32,000 nt of DNA from Raphidiopsis brookii D9 (GTDB lineage Bacteria; Cyanobacteriota; Cyanobacteriia; Cyanobacteriales; Nostocaceae). Below the pieces are notes generated by a model. It saw only the letters and a list, made by a program, of their open reading frames with translations, ran no database searches and had not been told where the DNA came from. The stretch lies in the NCBI GenBank assembly GCA_000175855.1, contig ACYB01000005.1, forward strand, positions 30,001-62,000, given 5' to 3'. The translations under genes and the position numbers were made by a program. Positions 8,312 to 32,000 of the stretch are shown piece by piece. Position 1 is the stretch's first letter. Every line of letters begins with the position of its first letter.

Positions 8312-8526
8312 ATTTTCCTAAGTCTGTGGTGAAGAAAACTGATGGGTCTATTAAGTTATCTAAGTTATCTAGAATATCAATATCAGTCCAAGCAGGGGTA
8401 GTTGCCGAGATGGATAATTGACTTTGATACAACCCAATTAAGTAATGACCATCATTCATAAAATATATCATACTGATGATACTGGCTCATCACGATATGG
8501 TTTTTAAAAACTGAAACTCGTATTAA

Positions 8527-9048: not shown

Positions 9049-9115
9049 AGATAGTGTTCCTCTTTTGGAAAAAAGACTTTCTCAACAACTAAATTAATAA
9101 ACTAATTAACAACTG

Positions 9116-10180: not shown

Positions 10181-10803
10181 AGAGAGTAAAAAGAGGTTTT
10201 ATTATTGGTTACTTCCGTGGTCATTTGTATTAGTGGCACCTGTTTATTGCCAAGATTATGACTTATGGAAGATGAGGTGGATTTATTAATTGAGATTTGT
10301 TGAGTAAAATCAATATCTGCTCTAAAAACTCGTATGGACAAAAGATAACTCTCATTTTTGGAACTTGTGGCAATTGTACCCGCTTGAATATAAAACAAAT
10401 TATTGGAATTATTTTGGCATCCCGTAAAACTAATTATGCCATTTTGGTTATAACAATATAAGCCATTTGCTGATGTTGGTGCTGGCATTTGCGAGCTGGT
10501 AATCAAATAATCTTGGGGACTGGTAGAAATATTCCTGGGAGCTTGTTGACTAGGAGTAATTTCAGATATTACTTGTGGCGTGACAATGGAACCCATTTTC
10601 ACCCCATTAACAAATGATGTTACTGCTTGAGCAGCCATTTCCACGCGCCGTGCTTGCATACGGATGGCTGTGGACATAATCCATATTGGAGTGATTACCA
10701 TTAATAATAAAGATACAGTGGAAATGGCCACTAGTGATTCTAAAACAGTAAAACCATCATATTCTGAATAACAGGGTAAATATTTTTTGAGATGACTTAG
10801 CAT
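10120..10803 (-). CDS. hpsB: Pseudopilin with a prepilin-type N-terminal cleavage/methylation signal (HpsB-like)
   Basis: ...YSEYDG|FTVLESLVAISTVSLLLMV matches the N_methyl consensus (G-F-T-x-L-E plus a hydrophobic helix). It is the second gene after hpsA. Confidence 0.65.
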   Translation of the reverse strand: MLSHLKKYLPCYSEYDGFTVLESLVAISTVSLLLMVITPIWIMSTAIRMQARRVEMAAQAVTSFVNGVKMGSIVTPQVISEITPSQQAPRNISTSPQDYLITSSQMPAPTSANGLYCYNQNGIISFTGCQNNSNNLFYIQAGTIATSSKNESYLLSIRVFRADIDFTQQISINKSTSSSISHNLGNKQVPLIQMTTEVTNNKTSFYSLCQRLGTIAPTTYSSSTLCQ

Positions 10804-10829
10804 ATTTTTAAAAATAATCTAAGAATAAT

Positions 10830-11219
10830 CTAAAAACAATTAAATCGTTGATCTGGATCAACAGCGTAGGTTGCATCACTGGTTTGTTTGGCACATAAAA
10901 GGGTTTGAATCCATTCATCATCTCGACCAACTTGACGAAAATAGTCTTTGGATAACTTTTGTGATTTTATAGGAATTTTTTGGGCAAATAAATCCAGTGG
11001 TTGAGATAAAAGTCCCACATCATAATGCCATTGTCGTCTAGGTGGAAGATGCCCAGAACTTCTACCAAAATTCACGGCAATTTTGTATTGAAAATCCTGG
11101 GGTTGACTGTTAATAGATGTGCTATAGGTTCCCGTGGCATAGTTACTCCTTTTCATTTGAATAAATGCACCATTGATTGTCAGATCTATAGGGGTAGTAT
11201 TAGGGCTCCAATTTTCCAA
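10830..11219 (-). CDS. hpsA: Displaced C-terminal segment of hpsA, in a different frame after a 1-nt indel
   Basis: The ORF has only a TTG start and overlaps the 3' end of the 1341-aa ORF. Its frame stays open upstream to 11246 and reads WGLPNLLRLLENWSPN. It joins the large ORF if one G is added to the G5 run (plus strand C5 at 11241-11245). Confidence 0.55.
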   Translation of the reverse strand: MENWSPNTTPIDLTINGAFIQMKRSNYATGTYSTSINSQPQDFQYKIAVNFGRSSGHLPPRRQWHYDVGLLSQPLDLFAQKIPIKSQKLSKDYFRQVGRDDEWIQTLLCAKQTSDATYAVDPDQRFNCF

Positions 11220-14200
11220 TAAGCGGAGTAAGTTGGGTAACCCCCATTATCTTCCATTGGACGAGCTGGATTGTCTCCCGTAGCAGCAATAAAATTCACA
11301 GTAGTTGGGGTTGCTATCTGTAACCAATGACTATGTGAACCATTGGTAATGCTGTTAGTGTTATGGGGGTCAGTTAGGGTGGCAAAGGGTTGATTAATTT
11401 GTAAAACTGGTTGCCAAAAACCATTGAAATCAGGTGTTAACCAGGGAATGAGAAATCCTTGATTATTTTCATTGACAGCTAATCTTGGTAAGGTGTTACC
11501 TGAAAAAGCAAAAGTTTTAATTATCTGATTATTATCCACTCCATAAACAGTTAGGGGTTGAAGTAATTTACCTGTTGCCAGATTTCTTTTGAAAGCAATT
11601 CTTTTAGGCAAGTTTATGGCTTCCCAACCATTAGATGGTGGATGATTATAACCAAGACTTCCAGTTTTAATGGCAGTTATTGGTAGACCCTCTATATTAC
11701 CTTCTGGTTGTGCATTGTATTCACTTCTAGAAAATCTACTAATTACCCATTGTGTTGGGTCATTGTTACATATATCAGTATTAGACACTAGACAAACCTC
11801 TAACAGAAATTCTCTAGCTGGTATTTGTTTAACTATGGGTGTGACAAAGTTGTGAAAATAGGAACTACCTTGTGTACCGTTAGTTGTGGGATCCAGATCG
11901 ATATTTGGTATACCATTGATATCATAATTTCGGGTTACTGTGGGAGCATAAGTGTTATATTCAAAGTTGGGAGGACGATTATTTAGGGATGCAGTATGGC
12001 CAATATAATTATTCCAATCATAGTCTCCTTCATTGCGAAACCCAAATCTAAAGTTCTGAGAAAGTAAGGTAATGGAATCTGCTAATATGGCAGCATTTCG
12101 CCACTCATCACCTACAGTACAAATAGATGGTCCAGAATCACTAGGAATTAGTTTAGGATCGCCAGGACGACAAGCAAATTGACGGTTTACCTGACTACGA
12201 TTGTAAAAATTACTCCAATCAGCTGCTAAGGTACTGGTAAATTCTTCTTGGGTATGTCTATTGAAATCACCTTTAATATAAACCGGTAAGTTAGAAGCTA
12301 AAATCAAACCCTTTTCCTGTCTTATAAATGTATTACTTGATCCACGGAAAAGTTTAGTTGGTGAACCATCACTAGTGGTAATTAGAATCCCATTAGGACG
12401 ACGAGTAGGATCAAGTTTATAATCCAGAGAACTTTCTGATTTAGCAGATATTCCTCCACTGCTATCTGGTAGAGCATCATCCCGAGTCGCATAAATAATT
12501 CCACTATTGGGTAATAAATACTCATCGGTTGATATTCTGGTTGTGCGTAGCTGATTTAAGTCTATGACTGTAGCACGAATTTCTAACGGTTGTCTATCTC
12601 TCAGAGGTAAATCGTAGGGTAAATTACTATCCATTTGTACCCGGTTTGAGGTTTGATTAGCTCTGATTTCTCTGGAATCTAAAAAAGCTATTTCCTTAAT
12701 TGCACCATGGGGAATGGGAGGGTTACTCAGAGGACTTATACTACCATCCATAATTTGTAAAGCACATAAGGCAGTATCTATGGCAGACTTTTCTGATAAG
12801 GAATAGTTGTTTTTTGCTAAAGCATTTCTCAAAGGTTCATTTACCCAACGTCCATTAGGATATTGCAACTCGGCTTGATATCTGAGTAAATTTGCATAAG
12901 CATTAACATTTCTAGTGGGAGGTGGATAAACAATACCATTGTTTGATAATCCCTGGGGAGATTTTTCTATTCCTCCTGCATTGGGTAAGCTCATCATATT
13001 TGTTGCTGTGCTGCTATTTGTAGGAAGATAAAAACTACTAATGCAAGCTATGGGGGTGGGGTTAGTCTGGTTATAGTTAGTAGATTTATAGTGGTAAACC
13101 ACCGTAGCTCGCATTTTTAAATAGGGGGTTGTAATGTCTGTTTCAGAAAGTTTAGGTAGGGTAAATTTTAAGGATGAATCATACATCCAGTAGGGATCAA
13201 TGGTTGTATTTGGGTATTCTTGAGATGTTTGTGGTATGGGTAAGATATCGGACCAAATTTTTGTTGAAACATCTACAAAGTTCGTGCTAGAAGCAGTATG
13301 ATTTCTGGGTAAATATATTCCAGAACCAGTAACCACACGCAAACCACCAATGAAATTTTCCTGTTGTGGATTTTGGGGTACTTGTGCTGCTGCATATTCC
13401 CAATCTCCATCCCTTTCTATTGCAGCTAAATCAGCTAAGTTATGCAGGGTGGTATAACGAGTTCTTGGTTGATTACTTAGATCCCAATTAATATCTTTGA
13501 GGTTTTGAGTGTGGTTAATATCGGTGGTAAAAAAGCGATTTTGTGGATAGTTCCACCACATTTGGGGTAGATTGTGACCAACTATAACCCGGTCTCCTAA
13601 ATACTGCTCTACTCCCCCTAGTTGTTTTTGCAGTTGCTCCATGGGTTCTGTTGCACTAGGTTTGAGTAAATTACCACCAATATTCCCACTAATATTTAAT
13701 GATAATTCACTATGATTAGTTCCTGTAATTCCATCACTAGCAAATGGATAAATCCATCGATCTATGGGACGCAGGGTATCACCAGTACCTTGTAAGGGAT
13801 TATGGATCTTATTTACATCGCTCTGTTCACTGCCAAAAGGTACTTCTTGAAAAGGCACACGGCGGGTGCGTTTTTGAAAATAGAGTTCTAATTCTTTACG
13901 GCGAATTTGGTCATACTGATCGTTTGTATATGCTGTTCCTAATTGCCTTTGTTTTTTGGTGATTCCCTGTTTTACTTCTTGGGGGTCGGTGGTCAAAGAA
14001 TTGGCTAGTTGGGTATCTACTAACTTATTAATTCTTTTTACATAAGCCAGACTGTTATAGGCTATGCTTCGTGGTGAATTAGTAACTGATTTATGGTCTC
14101 TAATTCTGGGGTTGTATCCCGCAACTGTTTCTGGATTTATGCCTTTATCCTTAAATAAATCTATGGTGGTTGCTATGGATAAATCTGTATTATCTGTAAA

Positions 14201-15211
14201 TCCACCCGCTGCTAAATTCCCACCTACGATAATTTTGGAGTTTTCTGGTTCGTAAAAGCAAGAACTCTGACTACTAATTTGATAGAGTCTAATTGAGCGG
14301 GAAGCTGAACCAGTTAACAAGTTACTATTGGTAAAAATTCTGCCATTAATTCTGAAGTCTTCATTGCCAGTAATTTGTAAGTCATCTTCATAAACAATGG
14401 CGTTGTTACTAGATGGAAGTTGGATTCTCTCTTGCTTATATTCTAGAGCATAAAATGCTTTATTTTCTGAGGATATTTCATAGTTAATTTGATTTTGTGT
14501 GGGTATGGTCATCTGGCTAGTAATGGGAACTGTAACAGTATAAACAAAAAAGGCTTTTCTCATTTGTCTACCGATTATTAACCACCCGTTTGTATCTACT
14601 AAATTACCACTTATTGAATTGAAATCCTGACATCGAGAATTAAAATCGATTGGATTTATAGGTAAAGATCTAGCTTCTAAAGTGTTTCTAGCTCGTATGT
14701 ATTGCTGATTGCTTTGAGGAGGATTTTTAAAATAAATGCCATAAAGAGTGTAACTGTCAAATTTACCATTGTTATTAGTGTCTACGGGAAATTTCCAGGC
14801 GGTTTTTAAGGGTTCGTAGTTTTGCAAGTTCAGGGTCAGATTAGTCTCATCACCAAAGGTATATTCGTCTAGGTGATTCACTAGGTTATTATATAAGTCT
14901 TGATCTGAAGGTAAAAATTGGGTAATTCTAGGATCTGCCAACATTTGGTTAATCTTGGCTCTTCCCCTATCTATTGCGGGAGTCGCTGCATTGATTACTG
15001 TTTGATTAATCCTGGTATTATGAGCATGTTTAGCTCTTTCAAAGGAGCGAAATATAATTGCCATTGTTAGTAACATTAGGACCAGGATAACCATGGTTGT
15101 TGTGGGCAATACAAATCCTTGGTTTTTTAAGGTTTGTCTCCTTTGATATTTCAAAATAATTTTTAAAAACCATTTTATAAAGCTTTTTATAGCTCTTGCT
15201 AAAATAGACAC
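11186..15211 (-). CDS. hpsA: HpsA-like giant pilin-like protein (hormogonium polysaccharide locus), apparently frameshifted near its 3' end
   Basis: This 1341-aa ORF is first in a series with three pseudopilin genes. Its N-terminus ...TLKNQG|FVLPTTTMVILVLMLLTMAIIF resembles a pilin signal plus anchor helix. The rest is Asn/Thr/Ser/Pro-rich with no recognisable enzymatic motif. The start is GTG at 15211; an alternative TTG at 15154 would give a 13-aa leader. Confidence 0.7.
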   Translation of the reverse strand: MSILARAIKSFIKWFLKIILKYQRRQTLKNQGFVLPTTTMVILVLMLLTMAIIFRSFERAKHAHNTRINQTVINAATPAIDRGRAKINQMLADPRITQFLPSDQDLYNNLVNHLDEYTFGDETNLTLNLQNYEPLKTAWKFPVDTNNNGKFDSYTLYGIYFKNPPQSNQQYIRARNTLEARSLPINPIDFNSRCQDFNSISGNLVDTNGWLIIGRQMRKAFFVYTVTVPITSQMTIPTQNQINYEISSENKAFYALEYKQERIQLPSSNNAIVYEDDLQITGNEDFRINGRIFTNSNLLTGSASRSIRLYQISSQSSCFYEPENSKIIVGGNLAAGGFTDNTDLSIATTIDLFKDKGINPETVAGYNPRIRDHKSVTNSPRSIAYNSLAYVKRINKLVDTQLANSLTTDPQEVKQGITKKQRQLGTAYTNDQYDQIRRKELELYFQKRTRRVPFQEVPFGSEQSDVNKIHNPLQGTGDTLRPIDRWIYPFASDGITGTNHSELSLNISGNIGGNLLKPSATEPMEQLQKQLGGVEQYLGDRVIVGHNLPQMWWNYPQNRFFTTDINHTQNLKDINWDLSNQPRTRYTTLHNLADLAAIERDGDWEYAAAQVPQNPQQENFIGGLRVVTGSGIYLPRNHTASSTNFVDVSTKIWSDILPIPQTSQEYPNTTIDPYWMYDSSLKFTLPKLSETDITTPYLKMRATVVYHYKSTNYNQTNPTPIACISSFYLPTNSSTATNMMSLPNAGGIEKSPQGLSNNGIVYPPPTRNVNAYANLLRYQAELQYPNGRWVNEPLRNALAKNNYSLSEKSAIDTALCALQIMDGSISPLSNPPIPHGAIKEIAFLDSREIRANQTSNRVQMDSNLPYDLPLRDRQPLEIRATVIDLNQLRTTRISTDEYLLPNSGIIYATRDDALPDSSGGISAKSESSLDYKLDPTRRPNGILITTSDGSPTKLFRGSSNTFIRQEKGLILASNLPVYIKGDFNRHTQEEFTSTLAADWSNFYNRSQVNRQFACRPGDPKLIPSDSGPSICTVGDEWRNAAILADSITLLSQNFRFGFRNEGDYDWNNYIGHTASLNNRPPNFEYNTYAPTVTRNYDINGIPNIDLDPTTNGTQGSSYFHNFVTPIVKQIPAREFLLEVCLVSNTDICNNDPTQWVISRFSRSEYNAQPEGNIEGLPITAIKTGSLGYNHPPSNGWEAINLPKRIAFKRNLATGKLLQPLTVYGVDNNQIIKTFAFSGNTLPRLAVNENNQGFLIPWLTPDFNGFWQPVLQINQPFATLTDPHNTNSITNGSHSHWLQIATPTTVNFIAATGDNPARPMEDNGGYPTYSAYWKIGALILPL

Positions 15212-22989: not shown

Positions 22990-23019
22990 TTGACGGAGTA
23001 AATTCACCCACAGTATGAT
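22990..23019 (+). promoter_or_regulatory. Candidate sigma70-type promoter upstream of the COP23 cluster (TTGACG, 18 nt, TATGAT)
   Basis: The -35-like TTGACG is at 22990-22995 and the -10-like TATGAT at 23014-23019. This is pattern only, and it would imply a leader of about 210 nt. Confidence 0.2.
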
Positions 23020-23237: not shown

Positions 23238-23912
23238 ATGAACAGCAAATTCTCAGCCACAGGTTTAGTAGCAACCCTAGCCCTATCAAGCATTTTGGGT
23301 TTAGGACATCGTCAATTAAAAGCCCAATCATCAGATGACGCATTCTTTGATCCGAGCGATCCCAGTCAATACAACGGAACTAAATTTACCTGTGTAGCCC
23401 AAGGTAGCGACTGGTCCACAGTTGGACAGCGCCCTGGTGGTAGACCAATTCCCATAATTGTGTGGACAAAAAAAGGAGCCCAGTCCTTTGGCGAAAATTA
23501 TAATCCCAAGAGCCGTTGTGAAATCGTCACAGCCAACCTCAACCAAGCGGTAGAAGACAGTGCTGGTAAGCTTTACGACGTAGTCCTAACCTGGGGTAAA
23601 CTTGGCGATGGCAAGACTGTTATTTGCGCACTTTCTTTAAAGGATAAAGGAGGTTGTGATGGTAACAATACCCTGTTTGCTCTGAAGCCAGAAAATGCCA
23701 AGGACCCTAATAAGGTTTTAGAAACCCTGACTCAAATTAGCATTAAAGGTTCCAGTGCAGGGACTGTTCGTGAAACAACAAGTCGTTTGAGTGTAAACCT
23801 GGGCAAAGTTGTCTCACAAGCAGCCAAGCGATTGCCTCAAGAAACACCCAAAACTCGCACAATTCCCGGAAATAGACCCGTTAAAGATACACCCGTTAAA
23901 GGTACTCTGTGA
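23238..23912 (+). CDS. Exported COP23-like domain protein, paralogue 1
   Basis: A signal peptide (ATGLVATLALSSILGLG...AQS) is followed by the core FTCVAQG..W.TVGQRPGG.PIP..VWT...FG.NY.P..RC..VT..LN.AV...G.L......G......VIC.......GC...NTLFALKPEN...P..VL. This resembles my recollection of the COP23 family (PF14218). There are four conserved Cys. The SD AGGAG lies at 23224-23228. Confidence 0.65.
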   Translation: MNSKFSATGLVATLALSSILGLGHRQLKAQSSDDAFFDPSDPSQYNGTKFTCVAQGSDWSTVGQRPGGRPIPIIVWTKKGAQSFGENYNPKSRCEIVTANLNQAVEDSAGKLYDVVLTWGKLGDGKTVICALSLKDKGGCDGNNTLFALKPENAKDPNKVLETLTQISIKGSSAGTVRETTSRLSVNLGKVVSQAAKRLPQETPKTRTIPGNRPVKDTPVKGTL

Positions 23913-24031
23913 CGAGTTGGTAACAAAACTTTGTATTAGAAGTTATCAGCATCGGGAACTTTCGCAATTCCATACTAGTCAATTTTTTCTAGGATGCACA
24001 CAACAAAATTAGGGAGTCATTTAGGAACATT

Positions 24032-25261
24032 ATGAACATTATATCAAAATCACATCTAAAATCTTCCGTAGTTATGGTAACCCTGTCCATCTGCGGTTCC
24101 TTGTCAGTTACACTTCCCATAGGTGCTCAGGTGCCTCCAGTGGCACCAGTCATCTATGTAGATCCCGCTAATGGGTTGAATGTTGTTGGCAATGGTAAGT
24201 CCCCAACAAATCCATATAAAAGCATTACTTTTGCCCTGGATCAGGCCCAATCGGGAACCATAATTCAGTTAGCTCCTGGTAGCTACACTAACGAGTCCTT
24301 TCCCATCCGAGTCAAACAGGGTGTTACCTTGCGGGGTGATGAATCAACCCAGGGCAAGACGGTGGTGATTTCCGGTGGTGGGGATTACAACAGTCGTAGG
24401 TTTGCCAAACAAAACGTGACAATTCTTGCGGGAGAGAATAGTACAATTACTGGTGTAACCGTGACGAATCGGAATGACAGAGGCACGGGTATATGGGTAG
24501 AATCAACTAACCCAGTGATTAAGAATAGCACATTTACCCAAAATTCCCGGGAGGGAGTATTCTTGATTGCTAGTCCCAATCCTACCGTGGAAAATAACCA
24601 GTTTATAGCAAACAATGGCAACGGTATTTCTGTAACCAAATCCAGCGGGGGGAAAATTAACGAGAATGTATTTGAAGGTAGTGGCTTTGGGTTGAGCATC
24701 AATGATGACTCCGCACCAGTATTGACTAAAAACCAAATCCTAAACAACAAAGATGGACTACTTATTACTGAGACAGCTAAACCATCGTTACGGGGCAATG
24801 TAATTAAGAATAACCAACGGGATGGCATAGTCATCACTCTTAATTCTTCCCCGGACCTAGGCACCCGGAGCAATCCAGGTGGCAATGTCATCGTCAACAA
24901 TGGTCGCTACAACATTTATAATGCTACCACAACTGGTGTTGCCATTTCCGCACTGGGTAATACCATAGACGACTCAGGGATTTTAGGTGAAGTAGAAATA
25001 GATGGAATCCAAATTACAGGTAGCAAAAAACCAGTGTCATCCGACGACCCAAATTTAGCCCTGTTAAAAAGATGGCAATTAACAGCTGTTTCCTGCAACT
25101 CTGGTCCAGCAATTGACATCTTTATAGGTGATAGACAGTATTGTGTCAGTCCCCACCCAGACCTAACCGCTAAGGCTTATGAGTACAATCCTACCACTGG
25201 TACCCTCAGAGCTTTAAGAACTGGCCCACGTGGCAACTCAATCATACGACCTGGCTTGTAG
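24032..25261 (+). CDS. Exported right-handed parallel beta-helix protein (DUF1565-like)
   Basis: A signal peptide is followed by IYVDPANG...NPYKSITFALDQAQSGTIIQLAPGSYTNESFPIRVKQGVTLRGDE. Repeated N-x-F/I-x-x-N beta-helix turns follow (NSTFTQNSREGVFL, NNQFIANNGNGISV, KNQILNNKDGLLI, GNVIKNNQRDGIVI). Confidence 0.8.
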   Translation: MNIISKSHLKSSVVMVTLSICGSLSVTLPIGAQVPPVAPVIYVDPANGLNVVGNGKSPTNPYKSITFALDQAQSGTIIQLAPGSYTNESFPIRVKQGVTLRGDESTQGKTVVISGGGDYNSRRFAKQNVTILAGENSTITGVTVTNRNDRGTGIWVESTNPVIKNSTFTQNSREGVFLIASPNPTVENNQFIANNGNGISVTKSSGGKINENVFEGSGFGLSINDDSAPVLTKNQILNNKDGLLITETAKPSLRGNVIKNNQRDGIVITLNSSPDLGTRSNPGGNVIVNNGRYNIYNATTTGVAISALGNTIDDSGILGEVEIDGIQITGSKKPVSSDDPNLALLKRWQLTAVSCNSGPAIDIFIGDRQYCVSPHPDLTAKAYEYNPTTGTLRALRTGPRGNSIIRPGL

Positions 25262-25309
25262 ATTTTGCTCCAGCAAGACCTGAAACTAAAAGCAAATTAA
25301 GGAGATATT

Positions 25310-25957
25310 ATGAACAGCAAATTCTCAGCTACATTTTTAGTAGCTACCCTAACCCTATCAAGCATTTTGGGTTTAGGAAATGGTCAATTAAGAGCCCAAT
25401 CATCAGATGATGAATTTTTTGATCCGAGCGATCGCAGTCAATACAATGGGACTAGATTTGCCTGTGTAGCCCAAGGTAGTAACTGGGCCACAGTTGGACA
25501 GCGCCCTGGTGGTAGACCCATTCCCATAGTTGTGTGGACAAAAAAAGGAGCCCAGTCCTTTGGCGAAAATTATAATCCCAAGAGCCGTTGTGAAATCGTT
25601 ACAGCCAATCTTAACCAAGCAGTGGAAGACAGCGCTGGTGATCTTTATGACGTAGTCCTAACTTGGGGTAAACTTGATAATGGCAAAACTGTGATTTGCG
25701 CACTTTCTTTAAAAGACGAAGGAGGTTGTGATGGTAGCAATACTCTGTTTGCTCTGAAACCCGAAAATGCCAAGGATCCTAATAAGGTTTTACAAACCCT
25801 GACTCAAATTAGTCTTAAAGGTTCTAGTGCAGGGGTTGTTACTGAAACAAAACCTCGTTTGAGTGTAAACCTAGGTAGGGTTGTATCCCAAGCGTCCAAA
25901 CGCTTGCCCCAAGAAACACCCAAGACCCGCAAAACTCCCAAATCAACTATAAGGTAG
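25310..25957 (+). CDS. Exported COP23-like domain protein, paralogue 2
   Basis: This gene is near-identical to paralogue 1 at the nucleotide level, including the SD region (AAGGAG at 25299-25304). It has the same four Cys and a shorter basic tail. Confidence 0.65.
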   Translation: MNSKFSATFLVATLTLSSILGLGNGQLRAQSSDDEFFDPSDRSQYNGTRFACVAQGSNWATVGQRPGGRPIPIVVWTKKGAQSFGENYNPKSRCEIVTANLNQAVEDSAGDLYDVVLTWGKLDNGKTVICALSLKDEGGCDGSNTLFALKPENAKDPNKVLQTLTQISLKGSSAGVVTETKPRLSVNLGRVVSQASKRLPQETPKTRKTPKSTIR

Positions 25958-25966
25958 ATAGAGATT

Positions 25967-26647
25967 ATGAGTAGGAAATTCTCAACCACATTTTTAGTAG
26001 CTACCCTAACCCTATCAAGCATTTTGGGTTTAGGACATGGCCAATTAAAAGCCCAATCATCAGATAACGCATTTTTTGATCCGAATGATCCGAGTCAGTA
26101 TAACGGGACTAGATTTGCCTGTGTAGCCCAAGGTAGTAACTGGGCCACAGTTGGACAGCGCCCTGGTGGTAGACCAATTCCCATAGTTGTGTGGACAAAA
26201 AAAGGAGCCCAGTCCTTTGGCGAAAATTATAATCCCAAGAGCCGTTGTGAAGTTGTCACAGCCAACCTCAACCAAGCCGTGGAAGATAGCGCTGGCAATC
26301 TTTACGACGTAGTTTTGACCTGGGGCAATGTTGGTGACAAAACTGTTATTTGCGCACTTTCTTTGAAGGATGAAGGAGGTTGTGATGGTAACAATACCCT
26401 GTTTGCTCTCAAACCCGAAAATGCCAGGAACCCTAACAGGGTTTTAGAAACCTTGACCCAAATTAGCATTAGAGGTTCTAGTGCAGGGGTTATTACTGAA
26501 ACAAGGGGACGTCGTCCTAATCGTGCTAGCGTAAACCTAGGTGAAGTTATCTCACAAGCAGCCAAGCGCTTGCCCAAACAAACGCTCAGAACCCGCCCAA
26601 ATCCTGGAGTTAAACCTACTGTTAGGCCTACTAGAGGTGGTCTATGA
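25967..26647 (+). CDS. Exported COP23-like domain protein, paralogue 3
   Basis: It starts 9 nt after the paralogue 2 stop and has the same core and Cys pattern. Its Arg/Pro-rich tail ends in RGGL. Confidence 0.65.
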   Translation: MSRKFSTTFLVATLTLSSILGLGHGQLKAQSSDNAFFDPNDPSQYNGTRFACVAQGSNWATVGQRPGGRPIPIVVWTKKGAQSFGENYNPKSRCEVVTANLNQAVEDSAGNLYDVVLTWGNVGDKTVICALSLKDEGGCDGNNTLFALKPENARNPNRVLETLTQISIRGSSAGVITETRGRRPNRASVNLGEVISQAAKRLPKQTLRTRPNPGVKPTVRPTRGGL

Positions 26648-26685
26648 CGAATGGCGGTTCTTGCATAATTGCTAACAAAATTGAA

Positions 26686-26714
26686 AGCGTGGGATAACCA
26701 AAATTTTCCACGCT
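26686..26714 (+). terminator. Hairpin AGCGTGG-15 nt-CCACGCT between COP23 copies 3 and 4
   Basis: A 7-bp inverted repeat is read directly from the sequence. There is no clear U-tract, so it could be an attenuator or RNA-processing structure rather than a terminator. Confidence 0.3.
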
Positions 26715-26738
26715 CCACCGAGAAAAGAAAGAGGCATT

Positions 26739-27514
26739 ATGAAATTTTCAGCAGCAGTTTTGACTACTTTCCTGACTGTATCAGCTATAGGTTGGCATGC
26801 TGGTATGGTGAGAGCTGTACCAGTGGAAAGTGGAGATAACCCCCCACTATCCCTGCACCCGACAACCCATCAAACTCACAACAGACTGATGGTGATGAAG
26901 GCTACAGTGGAGACAACCCACCCACTACTCCTGCATCCAACAACCCATCAAACTCACAACAGACTGGTGATGATGAAGCCTACAGCGGGACAAAATTTAC
27001 TTGTGTGTCCCAAGGTAATGGCAAGTGGGCTACCGTTGGACAGCGCCCTGGTGGACAGCCAATTCCTGTAATCATTTGGACCCAATCAGCTTCCAAATAT
27101 TTTGGTAGCCAATTTGCCCCCGAAAACCGGTGCCAAATCGTCACCAGCAAGTTCAATACAGCAGTGCGAGAGAGTGGTGGTAGCCTTCAGGATGTGTTGT
27201 TAACTAGTGGCAATGTTAATGGTCAGGTTGTTATTTGTGTAATTTCCGACCGAGATAATGGGTGTCAGGAGAAAAATACCCTATTTACCCTGAAACCAGA
27301 AAATGCCAAGAACCCTGATAAGGTTTTATCTCAACTCTTGGAGATTAGCACTAAGGGGTCAGACGGAGGTGTAATTACTGAAACAAGAAGTAATCGGCGG
27401 CGGGTTACAGTCAAACTCAGTGATGTGCTGTCAATAGCAGCTCGACGCTCATCTTCTTCACCCGTTAAAAGGCCAAAGGTTCAAAATAACCGACGGAATC
27501 AACGTGGTTTGTAA
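26739..27514 (+). pseudogene. COP23-like paralogue 4, split by a 1-nt deletion in a C6 run (26840-26845)
   Basis: The signal peptide frame (26739...) and the COP23 core frame (open from 26840, ...YSGTKFTCVSQGNGKWATVGQRPGG...) differ by one nucleotide. They join at AAC CCC CC|ACT. Restoring one C gives a continuous protein of about 258 aa. Confidence 0.6.
26829..26983 (+). repeat. Imperfect tandem duplication of a 78-nt (26-aa) linker unit inside COP23 paralogue 4; copy 1 is only 77 nt
   Basis: Copy 1 spans 26829-26905 and encodes SGDNPP(T)IPAPDNPSNSQQTDGDEGY. Copy 2 spans 26906-26983 and encodes SGDNPPTTPASNNPSNSQQTGDDEAY. Both were read directly from the sequence. Confidence 0.8.
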
Positions 27515-27541
27515 AGTAATTGTGGGAAAAAGGAATGGTAC

Positions 27542-28162
27542 ATGATGAAACTATCCACGACAGTTCTAGTTACTAGTTTAGCCCTAACAGGAACTTTGAT
27601 TCAGTTTGGGGTACAAGCTAAGCCCCCTACTGAAACCTACAATGGCACCAAGTTTACATGTGTTTCCCAAGGCAATGGCAACTGGGCTACTGTTGGTCAG
27701 CGTCCCGGTGGTGGTCCAATTACCGTAATTACCTGGACAAAAGAGGGTTCTAAATATTTTGGGGACAACTATACTGCTCAAAATCGTTGTCGAATGGTAA
27801 CTCCTAAATTTAATCGAGCTGTGAAACAAAATGGTGGACGTCTGAAAAATGTAGCTCTAATTAAAGGTATTGTTAACAATGAGACAGTTATCTGTGTAGC
27901 TTCTACAAGAAGTAGAACAGGTTGTAATGCTGAAAATTTCTTGTTTACTCTTAAGCCAGAAAATTCTCAAAAAGCCAATGAGATTCTGGCACAACTTACG
28001 GGAATTGGTAAATTGGGTTCCAGCGCAGGAGTTATCTGGGAAACAACCGGTCGTCTGCGAATTGAATTGAGTGAGGTTCTCGACCATAATCTTGACCCAC
28101 AACCCCAGCATTCTGACAAAATAACACCACCAGCAGACTCTAATCGGGGGTTCAAACTATAA
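27542..28162 (+). CDS. Exported COP23-like domain protein, paralogue 5 (diverged)
   Basis: A signal peptide is followed by YNGTKFTCVSQGNGNWATVGQRPGGGPITVITWT...NRCRMVT...ETVICVAS...GCNAENFLFTLKPEN. It has the same four-Cys core. Confidence 0.6.
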   Translation: MMKLSTTVLVTSLALTGTLIQFGVQAKPPTETYNGTKFTCVSQGNGNWATVGQRPGGGPITVITWTKEGSKYFGDNYTAQNRCRMVTPKFNRAVKQNGGRLKNVALIKGIVNNETVICVASTRSRTGCNAENFLFTLKPENSQKANEILAQLTGIGKLGSSAGVIWETTGRLRIELSEVLDHNLDPQPQHSDKITPPADSNRGFKL

Positions 28163-28217
28163 ATTCTACCCGGATGAGAAGGAATTAATCAACCGCTCCT
28201 TTTTTGAGTGAATCACC

Positions 28218-29030
28218 GTGTTTTATCCCATGTCTTTTAGGTTGTCTGTGCTATTACTGACAACAACTCTTCCCACTGTTTTGTATTCTCAAACCCTACC
28301 TAACTTCCTGGCTTCCAAACCCCATCCCGGATTTGAATTTCCCGCCGCCAGGACTGCCAGTAAAGTAACAGTCAGAATTTTTACCAAGTCTGGATCCGGT
28401 TCAGGAGTAATTATCAACCGTCAAGGAAAAAGCTACACGGTTTTGACCAATGATCACGTAGTAGTGGATAGTCCTGAGAGTGGTTATGAGGTTTTAACAC
28501 CTGATGGCAAGATTTACAAAGCTCACCAGTTGCCAACGGTAAATCCTGATTCCCTGGATCTAGCACTGGTGGAATTTACCAGTGGGGAAAATTATCAAGT
28601 TGTGCAATTTTCCCAGTCGCCAAATATATCTGGGGAAGTGGTATATGTATCTGGGTTTCCAGCGTGGCATTTTGTTTTTAATCGGGATACTATCAGCAAA
28701 GTGGAAACAACCCGCAATTGGGGACTGGGTGCTTTCAAGCTACGACCAGGCAACATCAAAATGTATCTTGACAAGACCTTGGTAGGTGGTTACAAGTTAG
28801 GTTTTACCAATGATTTTACCCAAGGGATGAGTGGAGGCCCTGTTCTAAATCAACAAGGAGAGCTTATTGGCATCAGTGGTTTATTAAAATACCCATTTCA
28901 GGGGATTAATGCCTTTATTTTCACTGATGGAACCAGGCCAGAAAGGGAAGAATACCGTAGAATCGAGTCTTTAAGTTGGGCTATTCCTATTTCCACTGTG
29001 GTTGGTTTTCTCCAAGAGCAAAAAAAATAA
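28218..29030 (+). CDS. Exported trypsin-like (S1/chymotrypsin-fold) serine peptidase
   Basis: The catalytic triad contexts are GSGSGVIINRQGKSYTVLTNDHVV (His), DLALVEF (Asp) and TQGMSGGPVLNQQGELIGI (Ser). The N-terminus is a hydrophobic signal. The start is GTG at 28218; an alternative ATG lies at 28230. Confidence 0.8.
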   Translation: MFYPMSFRLSVLLLTTTLPTVLYSQTLPNFLASKPHPGFEFPAARTASKVTVRIFTKSGSGSGVIINRQGKSYTVLTNDHVVVDSPESGYEVLTPDGKIYKAHQLPTVNPDSLDLALVEFTSGENYQVVQFSQSPNISGEVVYVSGFPAWHFVFNRDTISKVETTRNWGLGAFKLRPGNIKMYLDKTLVGGYKLGFTNDFTQGMSGGPVLNQQGELIGISGLLKYPFQGINAFIFTDGTRPEREEYRRIESLSWAIPISTVVGFLQEQKK

Positions 29031-29113
29031 TAGAATTATCATTATCAATCATAAGCAAATATTTATGATTTTTGACACTATTCCTACGCAAAAACACTGT
29101 GGGAGAAAAGTAA

Positions 29114-30499
29114 ATGAATTTAAGTATTACAACAAAAACCCCAAGAAAAACTACGATAAAAACTGCCAGAATTAATCTTTTTCTACTGGCTAGTGCACTC
29201 GTAACTGCTATTACATCTACTACTTCGTTAGCCACAGACACTATCAGTGCCCAGGACATAGCACAAATTGCTAAGAAGACATCTGTACAGATTAATACAG
29301 AAGGTGATATTACTCCGGGTGGTTCAGGAGTGATTATTGCCCAACAAGGTAATCGTTATTCTGTACTAACGGCCAATCACGTGGTCTGTGATATTATAGA
29401 CAGGCCGGGAAAAATTACCTGTGCTAAAGACATTACCTATTCTGTAAGAACAAATGATGGCAAAGAATACCCGATTCAATCACAGGACATTATAGTCCTA
29501 CAGTCAACCAAAAATGATCCTGATTTAGCCCTAGTTAGCTTTGTAGCTACAGAAGAATATCCCGTAGCTAATTTAGGTGATTCTGACCAAATGACAGAAG
29601 CATCAGATGTGTTTGTGGGGGGTTTTCCAGCAGTATTTGGTAAAGTTGGATCAGCCAGAGATTTTAGTTTTAGTAAAGGGATTGTTCTTTCGCGTGGTAG
29701 AACTTCTATTAATGGGTACAGTTTAATTTACGATGCCAAGACCCTGACCGGGAATAGCGGTGGACCGGTTTTTGATATTAAGGGTAGAGTGGTGGGAATT
29801 CACGGGTTAGCAGACGCCTCGAATAAAAGTAAAACAGAAACGGGAGAACTAGTATCACAGAAAACCGGATTTAATGCTGGCATTCCCATTAATACTTTTT
29901 TGAACTTCAATAACCCCCTGGTTAAAGATCTGCCAATTAAAAGGAATACCATTGCTACTGGGGAAGCGCCACAAGAACGTTTAAATTCTCCCCAATCTGC
30001 TCGAGATTTCTATGCCAGAGGTATTACTAAGCTGGAACAGTTTAATTATAAAGAGTCTTTAGCTGATCTTGATCAGGCGATCAAAATTGACCCCAAATAT
30101 GCAGAAGCTTATTTCAAACGCGGATATGCTCTCAGTTGGCTGAGAAGATACGAAGAAGCCCTTTTGGACTTTAACCAGGTAATTGCCTTGGATCCAAATT
30201 ATTTGGATGGTTATCTCAACCGTGGCTGGACTTATATCTGGTTACAAAATGACCAGGCCGCTCTTGAGGATTTCAATCGGGTAATTCGTATCAATCCTAA
30301 TTATGCTGAGGCATACGCCCATCAAGGTATGGCTTATATTAAGCTGGGCAAGTATCAAGCTGCCCTAGAATCTTCTAAACAAGCTATTAGGTTGGATCCT
30401 AATAAAAGTTATGGGTATACGATTCAAGGTGATGTATTCAATTATCTTAAAGACTATCCTGCTGCTATCAATGTTTCGACTTTTGCAATTAAAAATTGA
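29114..30499 (+). CDS. Trypsin-like S1 serine peptidase fused to C-terminal TPR repeats (3' end displaced by a frameshift)
   Basis: The triad contexts are GGSGVIIAQQGNRYSVLTANHVV, DLALVSF and LTGNSGGPVFDIKGRVVGIHG. At least four TPR units follow (AIKIDPKYAEAYFKRG, VIALDPNYLDGYLNRG, VIRINPNYAEAYAHQG, AIRLDPNKSYGYTIQG). The ORF stops in the middle of a TPR unit. Confidence 0.8.
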   Translation: MNLSITTKTPRKTTIKTARINLFLLASALVTAITSTTSLATDTISAQDIAQIAKKTSVQINTEGDITPGGSGVIIAQQGNRYSVLTANHVVCDIIDRPGKITCAKDITYSVRTNDGKEYPIQSQDIIVLQSTKNDPDLALVSFVATEEYPVANLGDSDQMTEASDVFVGGFPAVFGKVGSARDFSFSKGIVLSRGRTSINGYSLIYDAKTLTGNSGGPVFDIKGRVVGIHGLADASNKSKTETGELVSQKTGFNAGIPINTFLNFNNPLVKDLPIKRNTIATGEAPQERLNSPQSARDFYARGITKLEQFNYKESLADLDQAIKIDPKYAEAYFKRGYALSWLRRYEEALLDFNQVIALDPNYLDGYLNRGWTYIWLQNDQAALEDFNRVIRINPNYAEAYAHQGMAYIKLGKYQAALESSKQAIRLDPNKSYGYTIQGDVFNYLKDYPAAINVSTFAIKN

Positions 30500-30635
30500 T
30501 CCAGATGATTTTAATGCCTACATAAATCGTGCTTTAGCATATACTCTCACAGGTAATTATTCAGACGCTCTTGTGGACTATCAAAAGTCCGCAGAAATTT
30601 TTGAAAGACGTTACACCAGAAAACCTTCAAACTAG
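30492..30635 (+). CDS. Displaced last TPR unit and C-terminus of the TPR-S1 peptidase gene (+1 frame)
   Basis: The +1 frame reads K IDPDDFNAYINRALAYTLTGNYSDALVDYQKSAEIF, which completes the interrupted TPR (..AINVSTFAIK|IDPDD..). Removing one A from the A5 run at 30491-30495 fuses the two frames. Confidence 0.5.
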   Translation, partial: KIDPDDFNAYINRALAYTLTGNYSDALVDYQKSAEIFERRYTRKPSN

Positions 30636-31030: not shown

Positions 31031-32000
31031 CTATTGTGTGTTACACTCTGCATGTCTGGATAGGACAGCTGCATGTGTCTCGGGGAGGGAAGCTCTCACG
31101 CACCAACGACGCACCCACCCTAAAAATCCATCTCCAAAAACTAACCCAAACACCCACAACACTAACAAAAATGGCCACAGCAATGGCCACAGCACATAGA
31201 CCACAGCAACCAGCAGCAAACCAAACCCCCACCACTCATTCCAAACCCTCTCTGGAGACGTATAGAAGATATCAGTGAATATAGCTTTTGGTAGGTGACC
31301 TGATGGTACTGTTTGTGAAAAGTTTAAGTCTTCATAAGAGAGCCATTTTCCTGTACTCCTCCATCCGATACGGTCTCCTAATGATTTATATATGTTTCTA
31401 CTAAGCCCCTTTGTGGAATTCAGGCTTTGGTATATCTGGTACTGAATGGATATACCAAATTTACCTTGACTGTATTTTAACCACAGTTCGTCGATGGTCT
31501 GCAATCCTTTGCAAGGAAAATTTTCTACATCTTCTTTTCTTAGGTAACCTTCTTTTTCTCGGTTTGCTACCTTTAACATGATTTTTCCGGTTTCTATATC
31601 TGCTTGCCTAAACTTTTTGGATTTTAATAGTCTATCTAGTCTTGAGAATAGAGGTCTATAACGAGATGATTTAGCTAATTTAGTATCTTTTGAAAGCAGT
31701 AAGTTATAAACAGCATCTTTAACCTCCCAGGAATCATCTTTTTCTAAGATTTTCAGTAATAAATCAGTTAAGTTATGGTTAAGTTTGATAGCTTTTGTGT
31801 AATCGTCAATGGCACCCTGCTTATCTCCTAACTCGCTGCGTGTATTCCCACGGTTATAGTAAGATTCGGCATCATTAGGATTAATTTTGATGTCTTGATT
31901 ATATTTATCTAATTCTCTATACTTTCTCAATATTTCTAGGTATTTATCTCTGTGGTTTTTAAATATGGAACTAATCCAATTTTTTGATTCTTTAATAGGT
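31031..32000 (-). CDS. TPR plus GUN4-domain protein with a Trp/Gly/Val-rich C-terminal transmembrane tail (N-terminus probably outside the window)
   Basis: The GUN4 domain reads FRQADIETGKIMLKVANREKEGYLRKEDVENFPCKGLQTIDELWLKYSQGKFGISIQYQIY...GDRIGWR..GKWLSYEDLNF...GHLP. A TPR unit (NPNDAESYYNRGNTRSELGDKQGAIDDYTKAIKLN) lies upstream of it. The frame stays open from 31930 to the window end, and the listed start at 31930 is only a TTG. Confidence 0.8.
   Translation of the reverse strand, partial: PIKESKNWISSIFKNHRDKYLEILRKYRELDKYNQDIKINPNDAESYYNRGNTRSELGDKQGAIDDYTKAIKLNHNLTDLLLKILEKDDSWEVKDAVYNLLLSKDTKLAKSSRYRPLFSRLDRLLKSKKFRQADIETGKIMLKVANREKEGYLRKEDVENFPCKGLQTIDELWLKYSQGKFGISIQYQIYQSLNSTKGLSRNIYKSLGDRIGWRSTGKWLSYEDLNFSQTVPSGHLPKAIFTDIFYTSPERVWNEWWGFGLLLVAVVYVLWPLLWPFLLVLWVFGLVFGDGFLGWVRRWCVRASLPETHAAVLSRHAECNTQ

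What the first reader, a model, noticed from the sequence alone, without database searches (positions are those of the whole stretch)
23238..30635. Co-oriented cluster of eight exported proteins: five COP23-like paralogues, a DUF1565 beta-helix protein and two S1 serine peptidases
Eight consecutive plus-strand genes are separated by only 9-119 nt. Each has an N-terminal signal or anchor sequence.

Five encode the same small four-Cys domain, with the core F-x-C-V..G..WATVGQRPGG.PI..I.WT...FG..(Y/F).(P/A).NRC..VT..(L/F)N.AV...G.L...L..G.....VIC......GC...N.LF.LKPEN. I recognise this as COP23-like. COP23 is the circadian oscillating peripheral-membrane protein of Cyanothece, and its molecular function is unknown.

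The paralogues are interleaved with a pectate-lyase-fold beta-helix protein. Two trypsin-fold peptidases follow, both with intact His/Asp/Ser contexts, and one carries a TPR protein-interaction module.

A multi-copy family of unknown function, physically coupled to dedicated proteases and a putative glycan-binding or glycan-cleaving beta-helix, looks like a functional envelope or exoproteome module. Options include a protease-processed surface or matrix component, or a pro-protein/maturase set. To my knowledge no such module has been described.
Basis: partly seen in the sequence, partly recalled or inferred. Interest (0 to 1): 0.8.

Follow-up and report, generated by a model that had tools for sequence, protein, structure and literature searches.

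The report
Conserved cyanobacterial COP23–protease envelope gene module
A run of exported COP23-family proteins, a partner protein and two dedicated HtrA-like serine proteases forms a gene module conserved across many cyanobacteria, which gives the first testable handle on COP23, a protein whose function has been unknown since 1996.

Summary
The cluster is real. Pfam confirms five COP23 genes, one DUF1565 beta-helix gene and two Trypsin_2 peptidases, one of them with TPRs, all co-oriented with gaps of 9-119 nt. The window is Raphidiopsis brookii D9.

Three copies are imperfect as assembled:
- COP23d is frameshifted (C6 here, C7 in relatives).
- COP23b is a 3'-truncated duplicate.
- The S1-TPR gene has a 2-nt deletion near its 3' end.

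Synteny is strongly conserved. In 27 of 42 species loci with enough downstream sequence, COP23 is followed on the same strand by S1 peptidases (two of them in 25). No S1 gene occurs elsewhere in 432 kb of flanks. The flanking genes differ between genomes. In Arthrospira, COP23 and two serine-protease genes with consecutive locus tags fall together in published RNA-seq.

Two features are new here:
- A roughly 60-aa two-Cys domain with no Pfam match forms the C-terminus of the beta-helix protein. It also lies in the gene just upstream of COP23 in 31 of 43 loci and at the C-terminus of many S1-TPR proteins.
- COP23 and partner proteins share a lineage-specific extreme C-terminus. 207 of 229 COP23 proteins end in G-L or G-F.

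My best reading is a periplasmic or cell-wall module in which PDZ-less HtrA-type peptidases process or turn over COP23 and its partner. That function is inferred, not shown.

The parts
22990..23019 (+). Promoter-like site (TTGACG-18-TATGAT) in the 330-nt gap upstream of the first COP23 gene.
   Evidence: This is a consensus match only. The number of such sites in the region does not exceed that in shuffles.
23238..23912 (+). COP23a: an exported COP23-domain protein of 224 aa that ends in ...KGTL.
   Evidence: Pfam PF14218, E 2.1e-24. It is identical to EFA74311.1 (CRD_00240) of R. brookii D9. Hydrophobic N-terminus.
24032..25261 (+). DUF1565/right-handed beta-helix protein of 409 aa that ends in ...RPGL.
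   Evidence: Pfam Beta_helix 3.4e-36, DUF1565 1.2e-34, NosD 4e-16. NCBIfam hits fall below their cut-offs. An orthologous gene is found upstream of COP23 only in Nostocales.
25037..25228 (+). Two-Cys 'CTD' module of about 60 aa (residues about 336-399 of the beta-helix protein). It has no Pfam or NCBIfam family.
   Evidence: It recurs in the protein immediately upstream of COP23 in 31 of 43 loci and at the C-terminus of many S1-TPR proteins. It is the only copy in the window. Pfam finds nothing over it. phmmer finds 35 cluster representatives.
25310..25957 (+). COP23b: a 3'-truncated tandem duplicate of 215 aa that ends in ...KSTIR and lacks the G-L end.
   Evidence: Pfam 4.4e-25. The single b/c gene of relatives L056-58 maps to both b and c. 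3'-end alignment. Direct repeats D1 and D2.
25967..26647 (+). COP23c: 226 aa, ends in ...RGGL.
   Evidence: Pfam 1.3e-25. Identical to WP_040553110.1 of C. raciborskii CENA303.
26739..27514 (+). COP23d: interrupted by a 1-nt deficit in the C-run at 26840-26845. The repaired product is 258 aa and ends in ...QRGL. Its linker contains a 78-nt tandem duplication at 26829-26993.
   Evidence: Three-frame translation. Alignment to intact orthologues shows C6 against C7. The repaired length equals that of orthologues P0069/P0090. TRF. Pfam 1e-30 for the domain part.
27542..28162 (+). COP23e: 206 aa, ends in ...RGFKL.
   Evidence: Pfam 9.4e-30. In the AF2 model the core (residues 30-170) has pLDDT 83-94. 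No PDB relative by sequence or by Foldseek.
28218..29030 (+). S1 peptidase of 270 aa. It is HtrA-like and has no PDZ domain. Triad H80/D114/S205.
   Evidence: Pfam Trypsin_2 4.6e-22. NCBIfam Do/HtrA models score below their cut-offs. The closest solved protein is 'periplasmic serine protease DO', E 2.6e-6. Triad. Identical to EFA74315.1.
29114..30635 (+). S1-TPR peptidase. Triad H89/D137/S215, with at least 4 TPRs. The frame breaks at about 30491 through a 2-nt deletion. Intact orthologues are 507-512 aa.
   Evidence: Pfam Trypsin_2 2.1e-22 and TPR_1 5.5e-28, with a further TPR in the downstream frame. Frames. Alignment to L056/L057. Orthologue lengths.

Best explanation
This is a conserved, co-transcribed cyanobacterial envelope module. 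Its core order is [protein carrying a roughly 60-aa two-Cys 'CTD' domain] - [one to five COP23-family proteins] - [S1 peptidase] - [second S1 peptidase with a C-terminal extension: TPR, CTD or both]. In Raphidiopsis and other Nostocales the CTD is fused to a DUF1565 beta-helix, and the COP23 gene has been amplified.

All products are Sec-exported to the periplasm or cell wall.

The proposed mechanism is inferred. The two PDZ-less HtrA-type peptidases are dedicated to this protein set and process or turn over COP23 and its CTD partner. Recognition uses features the module members share: a disordered tail ending in a lineage-specific hydrophobic C-terminus (G-L in Nostocales, G-F in Chamaesiphon, M/V-F in a Phormidium group) and/or the CTD. 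In this reading the TPR and CTD extensions of the second peptidase play the substrate-docking role that PDZ domains play in canonical HtrA proteases.

Shown: domain identities, conserved synteny, the shared CTD, the shared C-terminal motif, intact triads, and co-regulation in Arthrospira. Inferred: export, who cleaves whom, and what reads the C-terminus.
For: - Domains.
- Synteny with unrelated flanks in named genomes: Anabaena FACHB-1237, Anabaena sp. 90, Scytonema PRP1, Phormidium CCY1219 and P. yuhuli.
- Synteny statistics over 47 species loci: S1 follows on the same strand in 27 of 42 loci, two S1 genes in 25, and there are 0 S1 ORFs in the other 431,830 bp.
- Four Chamaesiphon loci have a convergent S1 gene directly downstream instead.
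- The CTD lies upstream of COP23 in 31 of 43 loci and at the C-terminus of S1-TPR in Anabaena, Dolichospermum, Cronbergia, Phormidium and Pleurocapsales.
- C-terminal motif: 207 of 229 database COP23 proteins end in GF or GL, and 226 of 229 end in F, L or Y. All 34 non-protease CTD proteins end in a hydrophobic residue. Only 7 of 394 background ORFs end in G-[LFIMY]. COP23 and its CTD partner share the same last residue in 30 of 33 loci.
- 77 of 78 S1 orthologues keep H-D-S.
- Neither peptidase has a PDZ domain.
- Literature: COP23 of Synechococcus RF-1 is removed by light- and Ca2+-dependent degradation (bioRxiv 10.64898/2026.04.23.720389 citing its ref. 53). Arthrospira COP23 and two adjacent serine proteases are co-regulated (PMC13114239). 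The Anabaena homologue Alr2313 is in the exoproteome and is the gene most reduced in a sigG mutant (PMC4390845 and PMC4390870).
- A PG_binding_1 x2-COP23 fusion in Lyngbya PCC 8106 places the domain at the cell wall.
Against: - There is no direct evidence that the peptidases cut COP23.
- The C-terminal motif also occurs where the second S1 has no TPR (Microcoleus) and where no S1 is adjacent (most Chamaesiphon loci). TPR therefore cannot be its general reader.
- Outside Nostocales the peptidases themselves often carry the same C-terminus (for example RRGL/DLGL, PLVF/GFMF). That fits a common sorting or assembly signal at least as well as a degradation tag.
- Whether the original COP23 of Cyanothece, UCYN-A or Alr2313 lies in such a module could not be tested. 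The last homology search returned mostly Chamaesiphon-like sequences.
- The within-locus match of C-termini is confounded by phylogeny.
- In this strain, two of the eight genes are frame-broken as assembled.
- Signal peptides were judged by heuristics only.
Confidence: 0.5

Rival explanations
1. COP23 proteins are cognate inhibitors or regulators of the adjacent peptidases rather than their substrates. In this reading, small, abundant, disulfide-stabilised periplasmic proteins keep the two S1 enzymes in check. The hydrophobic C-terminus mimics a cleavage product and occupies the active site or an allosteric site, as OMP C-termini do for DegS.
For: - Tight, conserved adjacency of a small four-Cys exported protein to proteases.
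- A C-terminal Leu or Phe looks like a P1 residue of HtrA-type cleavage.
- Multi-copy and very high expression are reported for COP23 homologues (PMC11131595).
- The fold resembles no known fold, so no alternative activity is indicated.
Against: - COP23 genes occur without adjacent S1 genes in many Chamaesiphon genomes, always with the CTD partner.
- The PG_binding_1 fusion suggests a wall-directed role of its own.
- COP23 is reported to be degraded.
- The model shows no similarity to ecotin, SSI or other inhibitor folds.
Confidence: 0.15
2. The module is a sorting and assembly set for a surface or extracellular-matrix structure. The G-L or G-F C-terminus is a shared targeting or anchoring signal read by machinery encoded elsewhere. 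The beta-helix binds or cuts sheath or wall glycan. The peptidases mature the components as pro-protein convertases.
For: - In non-Nostocales lineages all four protein types carry the same C-terminus, peptidases included.
- Another exported protein near one locus ends in ...QGGL (L019 9319-9957).
- Alr2313 is found in the exoproteome.
- A DUF1565 protein is abundant in Spirulina extracellular vesicles (PMC11635480).
- dTDP-sugar genes lie upstream of the module in Anabaena sp. 90.
Against: - No known sorting system uses a bare C-terminal dipeptide without a transmembrane helix.
- No candidate sorting enzyme is conserved in the neighbourhood.
- The beta-helix is restricted to Nostocales.
- The sugar genes are not conserved neighbours.
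Confidence: 0.25
3. In this particular strain the cluster is a decaying remnant. In this reading, a function linked to N2 fixation was lost when R. brookii D9 lost nif, leaving frameshifted and truncated genes.
For: - Three of the eight genes are imperfect.
- D9 lacks nif and has a reduced genome (PMC2821919).
- The literature links COP23 to diazotrophy.
Against: - Five genes are intact.
- Several proteins are identical in C. raciborskii CENA303.
- Relatives at 94-97% nucleotide identity have all genes intact.
- The C6/C7 difference is a classic 454 homopolymer error in a 454 assembly.
- The module is present in non-diazotrophs such as Arthrospira and Chamaesiphon.
- The S1-TPR break would remove only about the last 45 residues.
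Confidence: 0.1

Closest known systems
COP23, the 23-kDa circadian oscillating protein of Synechococcus/Cyanothece RF-1 (Pfam PF14218)
   Same: The same Pfam domain scores well above the gathering threshold in all five paralogues, with four conserved Cys and an N-terminal export signal. Published homologues are envelope-associated or found in the exoproteome.
   Different: - Here there are five tandem copies in a non-diazotroph, whereas the literature ties COP23 to N2 fixation.
- Linkage to S1 peptidases, the CTD partner and the conserved G-L or G-F C-terminus are not described.
- Circadian behaviour was not tested.
- It was not established whether the RF-1 protein belongs to the protease-linked subgroup.
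HtrA/DegP/DegQ/DegS periplasmic serine endopeptidases (MEROPS S1C), including cyanobacterial HhoA/HhoB/HtrA
   Same: - A Trypsin_2 catalytic domain with the H-D-S triad and a GxSGGP motif.
- An exported location.
- The best solved relative is a 'serine protease DO'.
- DegS is switched on by hydrophobic C-termini of its clients, which parallels the conserved hydrophobic C-termini seen here.
   Different: - There is no PDZ domain. One paralogue is a bare protease, and the other carries TPR and/or the new CTD.
- Scores are far below the NCBIfam HtrA cut-offs (53-55 bits against 416).
- The genes are encoded as a pair next to a fixed set of putative clients, rather than as general quality-control enzymes.
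Prc (Tsp)-NlpI system of E. coli
   Same: It is a periplasmic protease that reads non-polar C-termini and uses a TPR protein as adaptor to deliver a specific cell-wall client (MepS). The TPR part here gives a sub-threshold NlpI hit (E 3.8e-14).
   Different: - Prc is an S41 peptidase and NlpI is a separate lipoprotein. Here the TPR is fused to an S1 peptidase.
- The similarity to NlpI is generic TPR similarity.
- The client relationship is hypothetical.
DUF1565 / LIC10774-family parallel beta-helix surface proteins; NosD and pectate-lyase-like folds
   Same: Pfam DUF1565, Beta_helix and NosD all score above their gathering thresholds, and the protein is exported.
   Different: - It carries the module-specific two-Cys CTD and the G-L end.
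- No catalytic residues were assessed.
- It is below the NCBIfam family cut-offs.
- It is present in the module only in Nostocales.
Magnetosome MamE/MamO (HtrA-like) with the TPR protein MamA
   Same: HtrA-type proteases and a TPR protein are encoded together to process a dedicated set of compartment proteins. There are weak NCBIfam hits to MamA, MamE and MamO.
   Different: The hits are far below the cut-offs. There are no magnetosome genes, and the clients and cellular context are different.

Membership tests
COP23 (PF14218) | Profile match above Pfam's gathering score (27 bits). | tested here: met
   86-107 bits for all five paralogues.
COP23 (PF14218) | Four conserved cysteines and the L-F-T-L-K-P-E-N core. 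| tested here: met
   In the alignments C118 and C128 are invariant. C40 and C83 are nearly invariant. The L134/F135/L137/N141 core is invariant.
COP23 (PF14218) | Circadian oscillation and peripheral association with the cell membrane, as for the founding protein. | not testable with these tools
   This needs time-series expression data and fractionation. Only literature on other species is available.
HtrA/DegP (S1C) peptidases | Trypsin-fold catalytic domain with the His-Asp-Ser triad. | tested here: met
   Trypsin_2 at 80-81 bits. H80/D114/S205 and H89/D137/S215. 77 of 78 orthologues keep the triad.
HtrA/DegP (S1C) peptidases | One or two C-terminal PDZ domains. | tested here: not met
   Pfam finds no PDZ in either protein. 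The second has TPR instead.
HtrA/DegP (S1C) peptidases | Score above the NCBIfam Do/HtrA/HhoA cut-offs. | tested here: not met
   53-55 bits against 416 for TIGR02037. 24-40 bits against 450 for HhoA_HhoB_HtrA.
DUF1565 / right-handed parallel beta-helix | Profile match above the gathering score. | tested here: met
   DUF1565 120 bits (cut-off 20.3). Beta_helix 125 bits (cut-off 25.9).
DUF1565 / right-handed parallel beta-helix | Beta-helix three-dimensional fold and an active-site groove of pectate-lyase type. | tested here: inconclusive
   The single-sequence AF2 model is poor (pLDDT 43). No PDB sequence relative.
Sec-exported proteins | N-terminal signal peptide: positive n-region, hydrophobic h-region and a cleavage site. 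| tested here: inconclusive
   A hydrophobic 12-mer (KD 1.9-2.6) lies within the first 35 residues of all eight proteins, with A-x-A-like sites. No SignalP was available.
Conserved operon-like module (COP23 + two S1 peptidases) | Same order and strand in distant genomes with unrelated flanks. | tested here: met
   27 of 42 species loci. 0 S1 ORFs in 432 kb of other flank.
Conserved operon-like module (COP23 + two S1 peptidases) | Co-expression of the member genes. | not testable with these tools
   Not testable for this strain. In Arthrospira platensis three consecutive locus tags (COP23 plus two serine proteases) are all down about 4-fold among 21 DEGs (PMC13114239).
Known anti-phage defence systems (PADLOC) | Match to full system components. 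| tested here: not met
   Only protease-domain-level hits (LmuA, RT-Protease, Avs1b). COP23 and the beta-helix protein have none.

The most novel reading that the evidence does not exclude
Cyanobacteria have a previously unrecognised envelope system built on two undescribed signals.
- The first is a genetically encoded extreme C-terminal G-L or G-F tag on a disordered tail.
- The second is a roughly 60-aa two-Cys adaptor domain.

Together these would direct a peptidoglycan-associated protein family (COP23) and its partners to a dedicated pair of PDZ-less HtrA peptidases, or to a common sorting step. This would explain the timed synthesis and degradation of COP23. It would also explain why COP23 is kept and is among the most expressed genes in N2-fixing endosymbionts and organelles.
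Probability: 0.25. Interest if true: 0.8.

Novelty: new variant of a known kind. Interest (0 to 1): 0.62.

Why it matters
COP23 was described in 1996 and still has no function. It is nevertheless the most strongly cycling transcript in UCYN-A, the most expressed gene in diatom spheroid bodies, and strongly nitrogen-regulated in diazoplasts.

Three findings here turn an orphan into a system with clear experiments:
- The family sits in a conserved, co-regulated module with two dedicated peptidases.
- It travels with a partner domain that no database describes.
- Its members share an almost invariant C-terminal dipeptide.

The experiments are protease knock-outs, tag deletions and binding assays.

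The work also shows that the family is not restricted to nitrogen fixers. It occurs in five copies in the nif-less R. brookii D9, and also in Arthrospira and Chamaesiphon. This corrects a statement repeated in the literature.

Tried and rejected
The exhaustive phmmer search did find the family. Its three largest hits (LRR, TSP_1 and M23 proteins at E about 1e-3 to 1e-4) look spurious.
- Reaching the canonical Cyanothece, UCYN-A or Alr2313 COP23 with a profile of divergent members failed. The listed hits were almost all Chamaesiphon-like.
- NtcA site (GTA-N8-TAC) upstream of the cluster: none. The count in the window is at chance level.
- Promoter and terminator scans were not above shuffles and are not informative on operon structure.
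- Rfam found no RNA family in the region.
- An anti-phage defence reading is rejected. PADLOC gives only generic protease-domain hits, and the proteins are exported.
- TPR as the universal reader of the C-terminal tag is rejected as a general rule, because tags persist where TPR or the adjacent S1 is absent.
- A lipoprotein reading of the beta-helix protein is not supported. L-S-I-C is not a canonical lipobox (by eye).

Full report
**1. What is in the window**

- COP23a: 23238-23912.
- A DUF1565/Beta_helix protein: 24032-25261.
- COP23b: 25310-25957.
- COP23c: 25967-26647.
- COP23d: 26739-27514.
- COP23e: 27542-28162.
- An S1 (Trypsin_2) peptidase: 28218-29030.
- An S1-TPR peptidase: 29114-30635.

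The gaps are 119, 48, 9, 91, 27, 55 and 83 nt. The COP23 hits score 86-107 bits against a cut-off of 27. DUF1565 scores 120 bits. Trypsin_2 scores about 80 bits for both peptidases. The four Cys and the LFTLKPEN core are invariant or nearly so in alignments with 21 and 43 homologues. Both peptidases keep the triad: H80/D114/S205 and H89/D137/S215. All N-termini have a hydrophobic stretch consistent with Sec signals. This is a heuristic only.

Exact-sequence look-ups identify the source as Raphidiopsis brookii D9 (EFA74309, EFA74311 and EFA74315). Several proteins are identical in Cylindrospermopsis raciborskii CENA303.

**2.

- COP23d is split between two frames. The window has C6 at 26840-26845 where relatives at 94-97% nucleotide identity have C7. 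Adding one C restores a 258-aa protein, the same length as orthologues P0069 and P0090. Its linker carries a 78-nt tandem duplication.
- COP23b and COP23c both map to a single gene in the relatives. COP23b has a shortened 3' end and lacks the usual terminus.
- The S1-TPR gene has a 2-nt deletion at about 30491 (ATTGACAAAAT becomes ATTA--AAAAT). This moves the last TPR into another frame. Orthologues are intact at 507-512 aa.
- D9 was sequenced with 454/GS20 (PMC2821919). The C-run difference may therefore be an artefact. The 2-nt change is less typical of that error.

**3. Is the cluster a unit?**

Gene-context look-ups for homologues give the same order with unrelated flanking genes.
- Anabaena FACHB-1237: DUF1565, COP23 x2, S1, S1-TPR.
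- Anabaena sp. 90: DUF1565, COP23 x2, an IS605 element, COP23, S1-TPR.
- Scytonema PRP1, Phormidium CCY1219 and P. yuhuli: COP23, S1, S1-TPR.

A scan of one genome per species returned 47 COP23 loci. I annotated them with profiles built from the window proteins.
- Of 42 loci with at least 1.2 kb downstream, 27 have an S1 gene on the same strand right after COP23, and 25 have two.
- Four Chamaesiphon loci have a convergent S1 instead.
- No S1 ORF occurs in the remaining 431,830 bp of flank.
- The lineages covered are Nostocales, Phormidium, Microcoleus, Limnoraphis, Pleurocapsales, Leptolyngbyaceae, Chroococcales and Elainellales.
- 77 of 78 S1 orthologues keep H-D-S.

There is independent expression evidence. 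In an Arthrospira platensis RNA-seq study with only 21 differentially expressed genes, GDL46_RS07465 (COP23) and RS07460 and RS07455 (serine proteases) are consecutive locus tags, all at log2FC about -2 (PMC13114239). The authors did not comment on this.

**4. Two features found here**

(a) A shared two-Cys domain. The last roughly 60 residues of the beta-helix protein (window 25037-25228) have this consensus:

...DPNLALLKKWGLTRVACNSGEVVVSIIIDGKTYCVQPHPALTAGEYTYNRATGRLEPL

- They form a two-Cys module that recurs in one or two copies at the C-terminus of S1-TPR proteins in Anabaena, Dolichospermum, Aphanizomenon, Cronbergia, Phormidium and Pleurocapsales.
- The module also occurs in one to three copies in the otherwise unrelated 160-370-aa exported protein immediately upstream of COP23 wherever there is no beta-helix. 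That includes Chamaesiphon loci with no S1.
- It lies upstream of COP23 in 31 of 43 loci.
- Pfam and NCBIfam have nothing over it.
- An exhaustive phmmer search finds 35 cluster representatives, including a 947-aa protein with 11 repeats.
- The conserved partner of COP23 is therefore this domain, not the beta-helix, which is a Nostocales-specific fusion.

(b) A shared C-terminus.
- COP23 proteins end in a low-complexity tail with an almost fixed last dipeptide. 207 of 229 database members end in GF or GL, and 226 of 229 end in F, L or Y.
- The CTD proteins do the same: all 34 have a hydrophobic last residue, and 27 of 34 end in G-[LFIMY]. Only 7 of 394 other ORFs from the same loci do.
- The residue is lineage-specific: G-L in Nostocales, G-F in Chamaesiphon, M/V-F in a Phormidium group and [LVP]-F/Y in Microcoleus.
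- COP23 and its partner match in 30 of 33 loci. That figure is not corrected for phylogeny.
- Outside Nostocales the peptidases often carry the same end, for example RRGL/DLGL and PLVF/GFMF.
- In the window, COP23a, c, d and e and the beta-helix protein end in L, and three of these five (COP23c, COP23d and the beta-helix protein) end in G-L. COP23b and the peptidases do not.

**5. Location**

- A Lyngbya PCC 8106 protein fuses two PG_binding_1 domains to a COP23 domain (E 1.7e-38 and 7e-21).
- The Anabaena homologue Alr2313 is found in the exoproteome (PMC4390845).
- Alr2313 is the gene most reduced in a sigG mutant (PMC4390870).
- The founding COP23 was described as a cell-membrane protein.
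- Together with the signal peptides, this places the module in the periplasm or cell wall.

**6. Fold**

- The AF2 model of COP23e has a confident alpha/beta core (pLDDT 83-94 over residues 30-170) with disordered ends.
- It has no counterpart in PDB by Foldseek (best TM 0.19) or by profile.
- Other structure libraries were unavailable.
- The beta-helix/CTD model was unusable.

**7. Mechanism**

Shown: a conserved, co-regulated set of exported proteins with shared recognition features and two catalytically intact peptidases that lack PDZ domains.

Inferred: the peptidases act on COP23 and its partner, either processing them or turning them over in a timed way.

Support for the inference:
- The founding COP23 is reported to cycle through synthesis and light- and Ca2+-dependent degradation (bioRxiv 10.64898/2026.04.23.720389).
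- HtrA relatives (DegS) and Prc-NlpI read hydrophobic C-termini. This point rests on established knowledge.

Against a simple 'TPR reads the tag' model:
- Tags persist where TPR or the adjacent S1 is missing.
- The peptidases themselves can be tagged. A common sorting or assembly signal is therefore a serious rival.

An inhibitor role for COP23 is also possible. The decay-in-D9 reading is unlikely, given intact genes in close relatives and in other non-diazotrophs.

**8. Comparison and novelty**

- Each domain family is known, and GenBank already labels these genes.
- The module, the CTD and the C-terminal motif were not found in the literature searched.
- It works most like a dedicated HtrA-type or Prc-NlpI-type periplasmic proteolysis unit, but it fails HtrA membership on the PDZ domain and on family cut-offs.
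- I class it as a new variant of a known kind.
- The statement that COP23 occurs only in N2 fixers (PMC6315102) does not hold for the family. D9 lacks nif, and Arthrospira and Chamaesiphon carry it.

**9. Limits**

- There was no SignalP and no multimer modelling.
- The context of the founding COP23 is unresolved.
- The genome scan used a single peptide pattern (NxLF[TA]LKPEN), so the sample is biased towards conserved members.
- There is no expression data for this strain.

Noticed in passing
window 26838-26846: The frameshift site in COP23d reads AA C CCC CCA in the zero frame. This is formally an X XXY YYZ heptamer at which a -1 slip would restore the COP23 frame. A 454 homopolymer error is the more likely explanation.
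   Followed up: partly
window 26829-26993: A 78-nt tandem duplication (2.1 copies, 87% match) encodes a repeated GDNPPT(I/T)PA..NPSNSQQT.GDE.YS linker between the signal peptide and the COP23 domain of COP23d. The orthologues have the same two repeats.
   Followed up: partly
L045 9392-10483 (Lyngbya sp. PCC 8106): A 364-aa protein has two PG_binding_1 domains fused N-terminally to a COP23 domain. This fusion links the COP23 domain to peptidoglycan. The locus has neither an S1 gene nor a CTD gene.
   Followed up: partly
window 7469-15211, minus strand: Six consecutive ORFs (280, 173, 354, 227, 129 and 1341 aa) have no Pfam hit at E<=1e-5. Two pairs overlap by 34-61 nt, which may mean frameshift-split genes in this 454 assembly.
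   Followed up: no
L002 8732-9970 (Anabaena sp. 90): An IS605 OrfB/TnpB element is inserted between the second and third COP23 genes of the module. This genome also lacks the short S1 gene and has only S1-TPR-CTD.
   Followed up: no
L019 9319-9957, minus strand (Leptolyngbyaceae MAG): An unrelated 212-aa exported-looking protein about 6 kb from the module ends in a low-complexity tail ...NSLQGGL. This hints that the G-L terminus may mark more proteins than the module members.
   Followed up: no
P0280 (947 aa, metagenomic representative): This protein has 11 matched stretches to the 60-aa two-Cys CTD and no credible Pfam domain. The CTD can therefore form long repeat arrays.
   Followed up: partly
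L047 6031-6936: By eye, a COP23-domain protein is followed by a hydrophobic segment (PLALPFSLIVSFVFGSVVGGLAIFLL) and a charged coiled-coil-like tail. This would be a membrane-anchored variant without the G-L/F end. The sequence contains masked X residues.
   Followed up: no
window 31031-31930, minus strand: A convergent gene encodes a TPR plus GUN4-like protein (GUN4 E 1.9e-37) with a hydrophobic C-terminal region. It is not conserved next to the module in other genomes.
   Followed up: no
L004 16456-20723 and L006/L007 flanks: In some genomes the module lies near large TPS-domain (two-partner secretion) or NB-ARC/WD40 STAND proteins. These neighbours are not conserved and are probably coincidental.
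   Followed up: no
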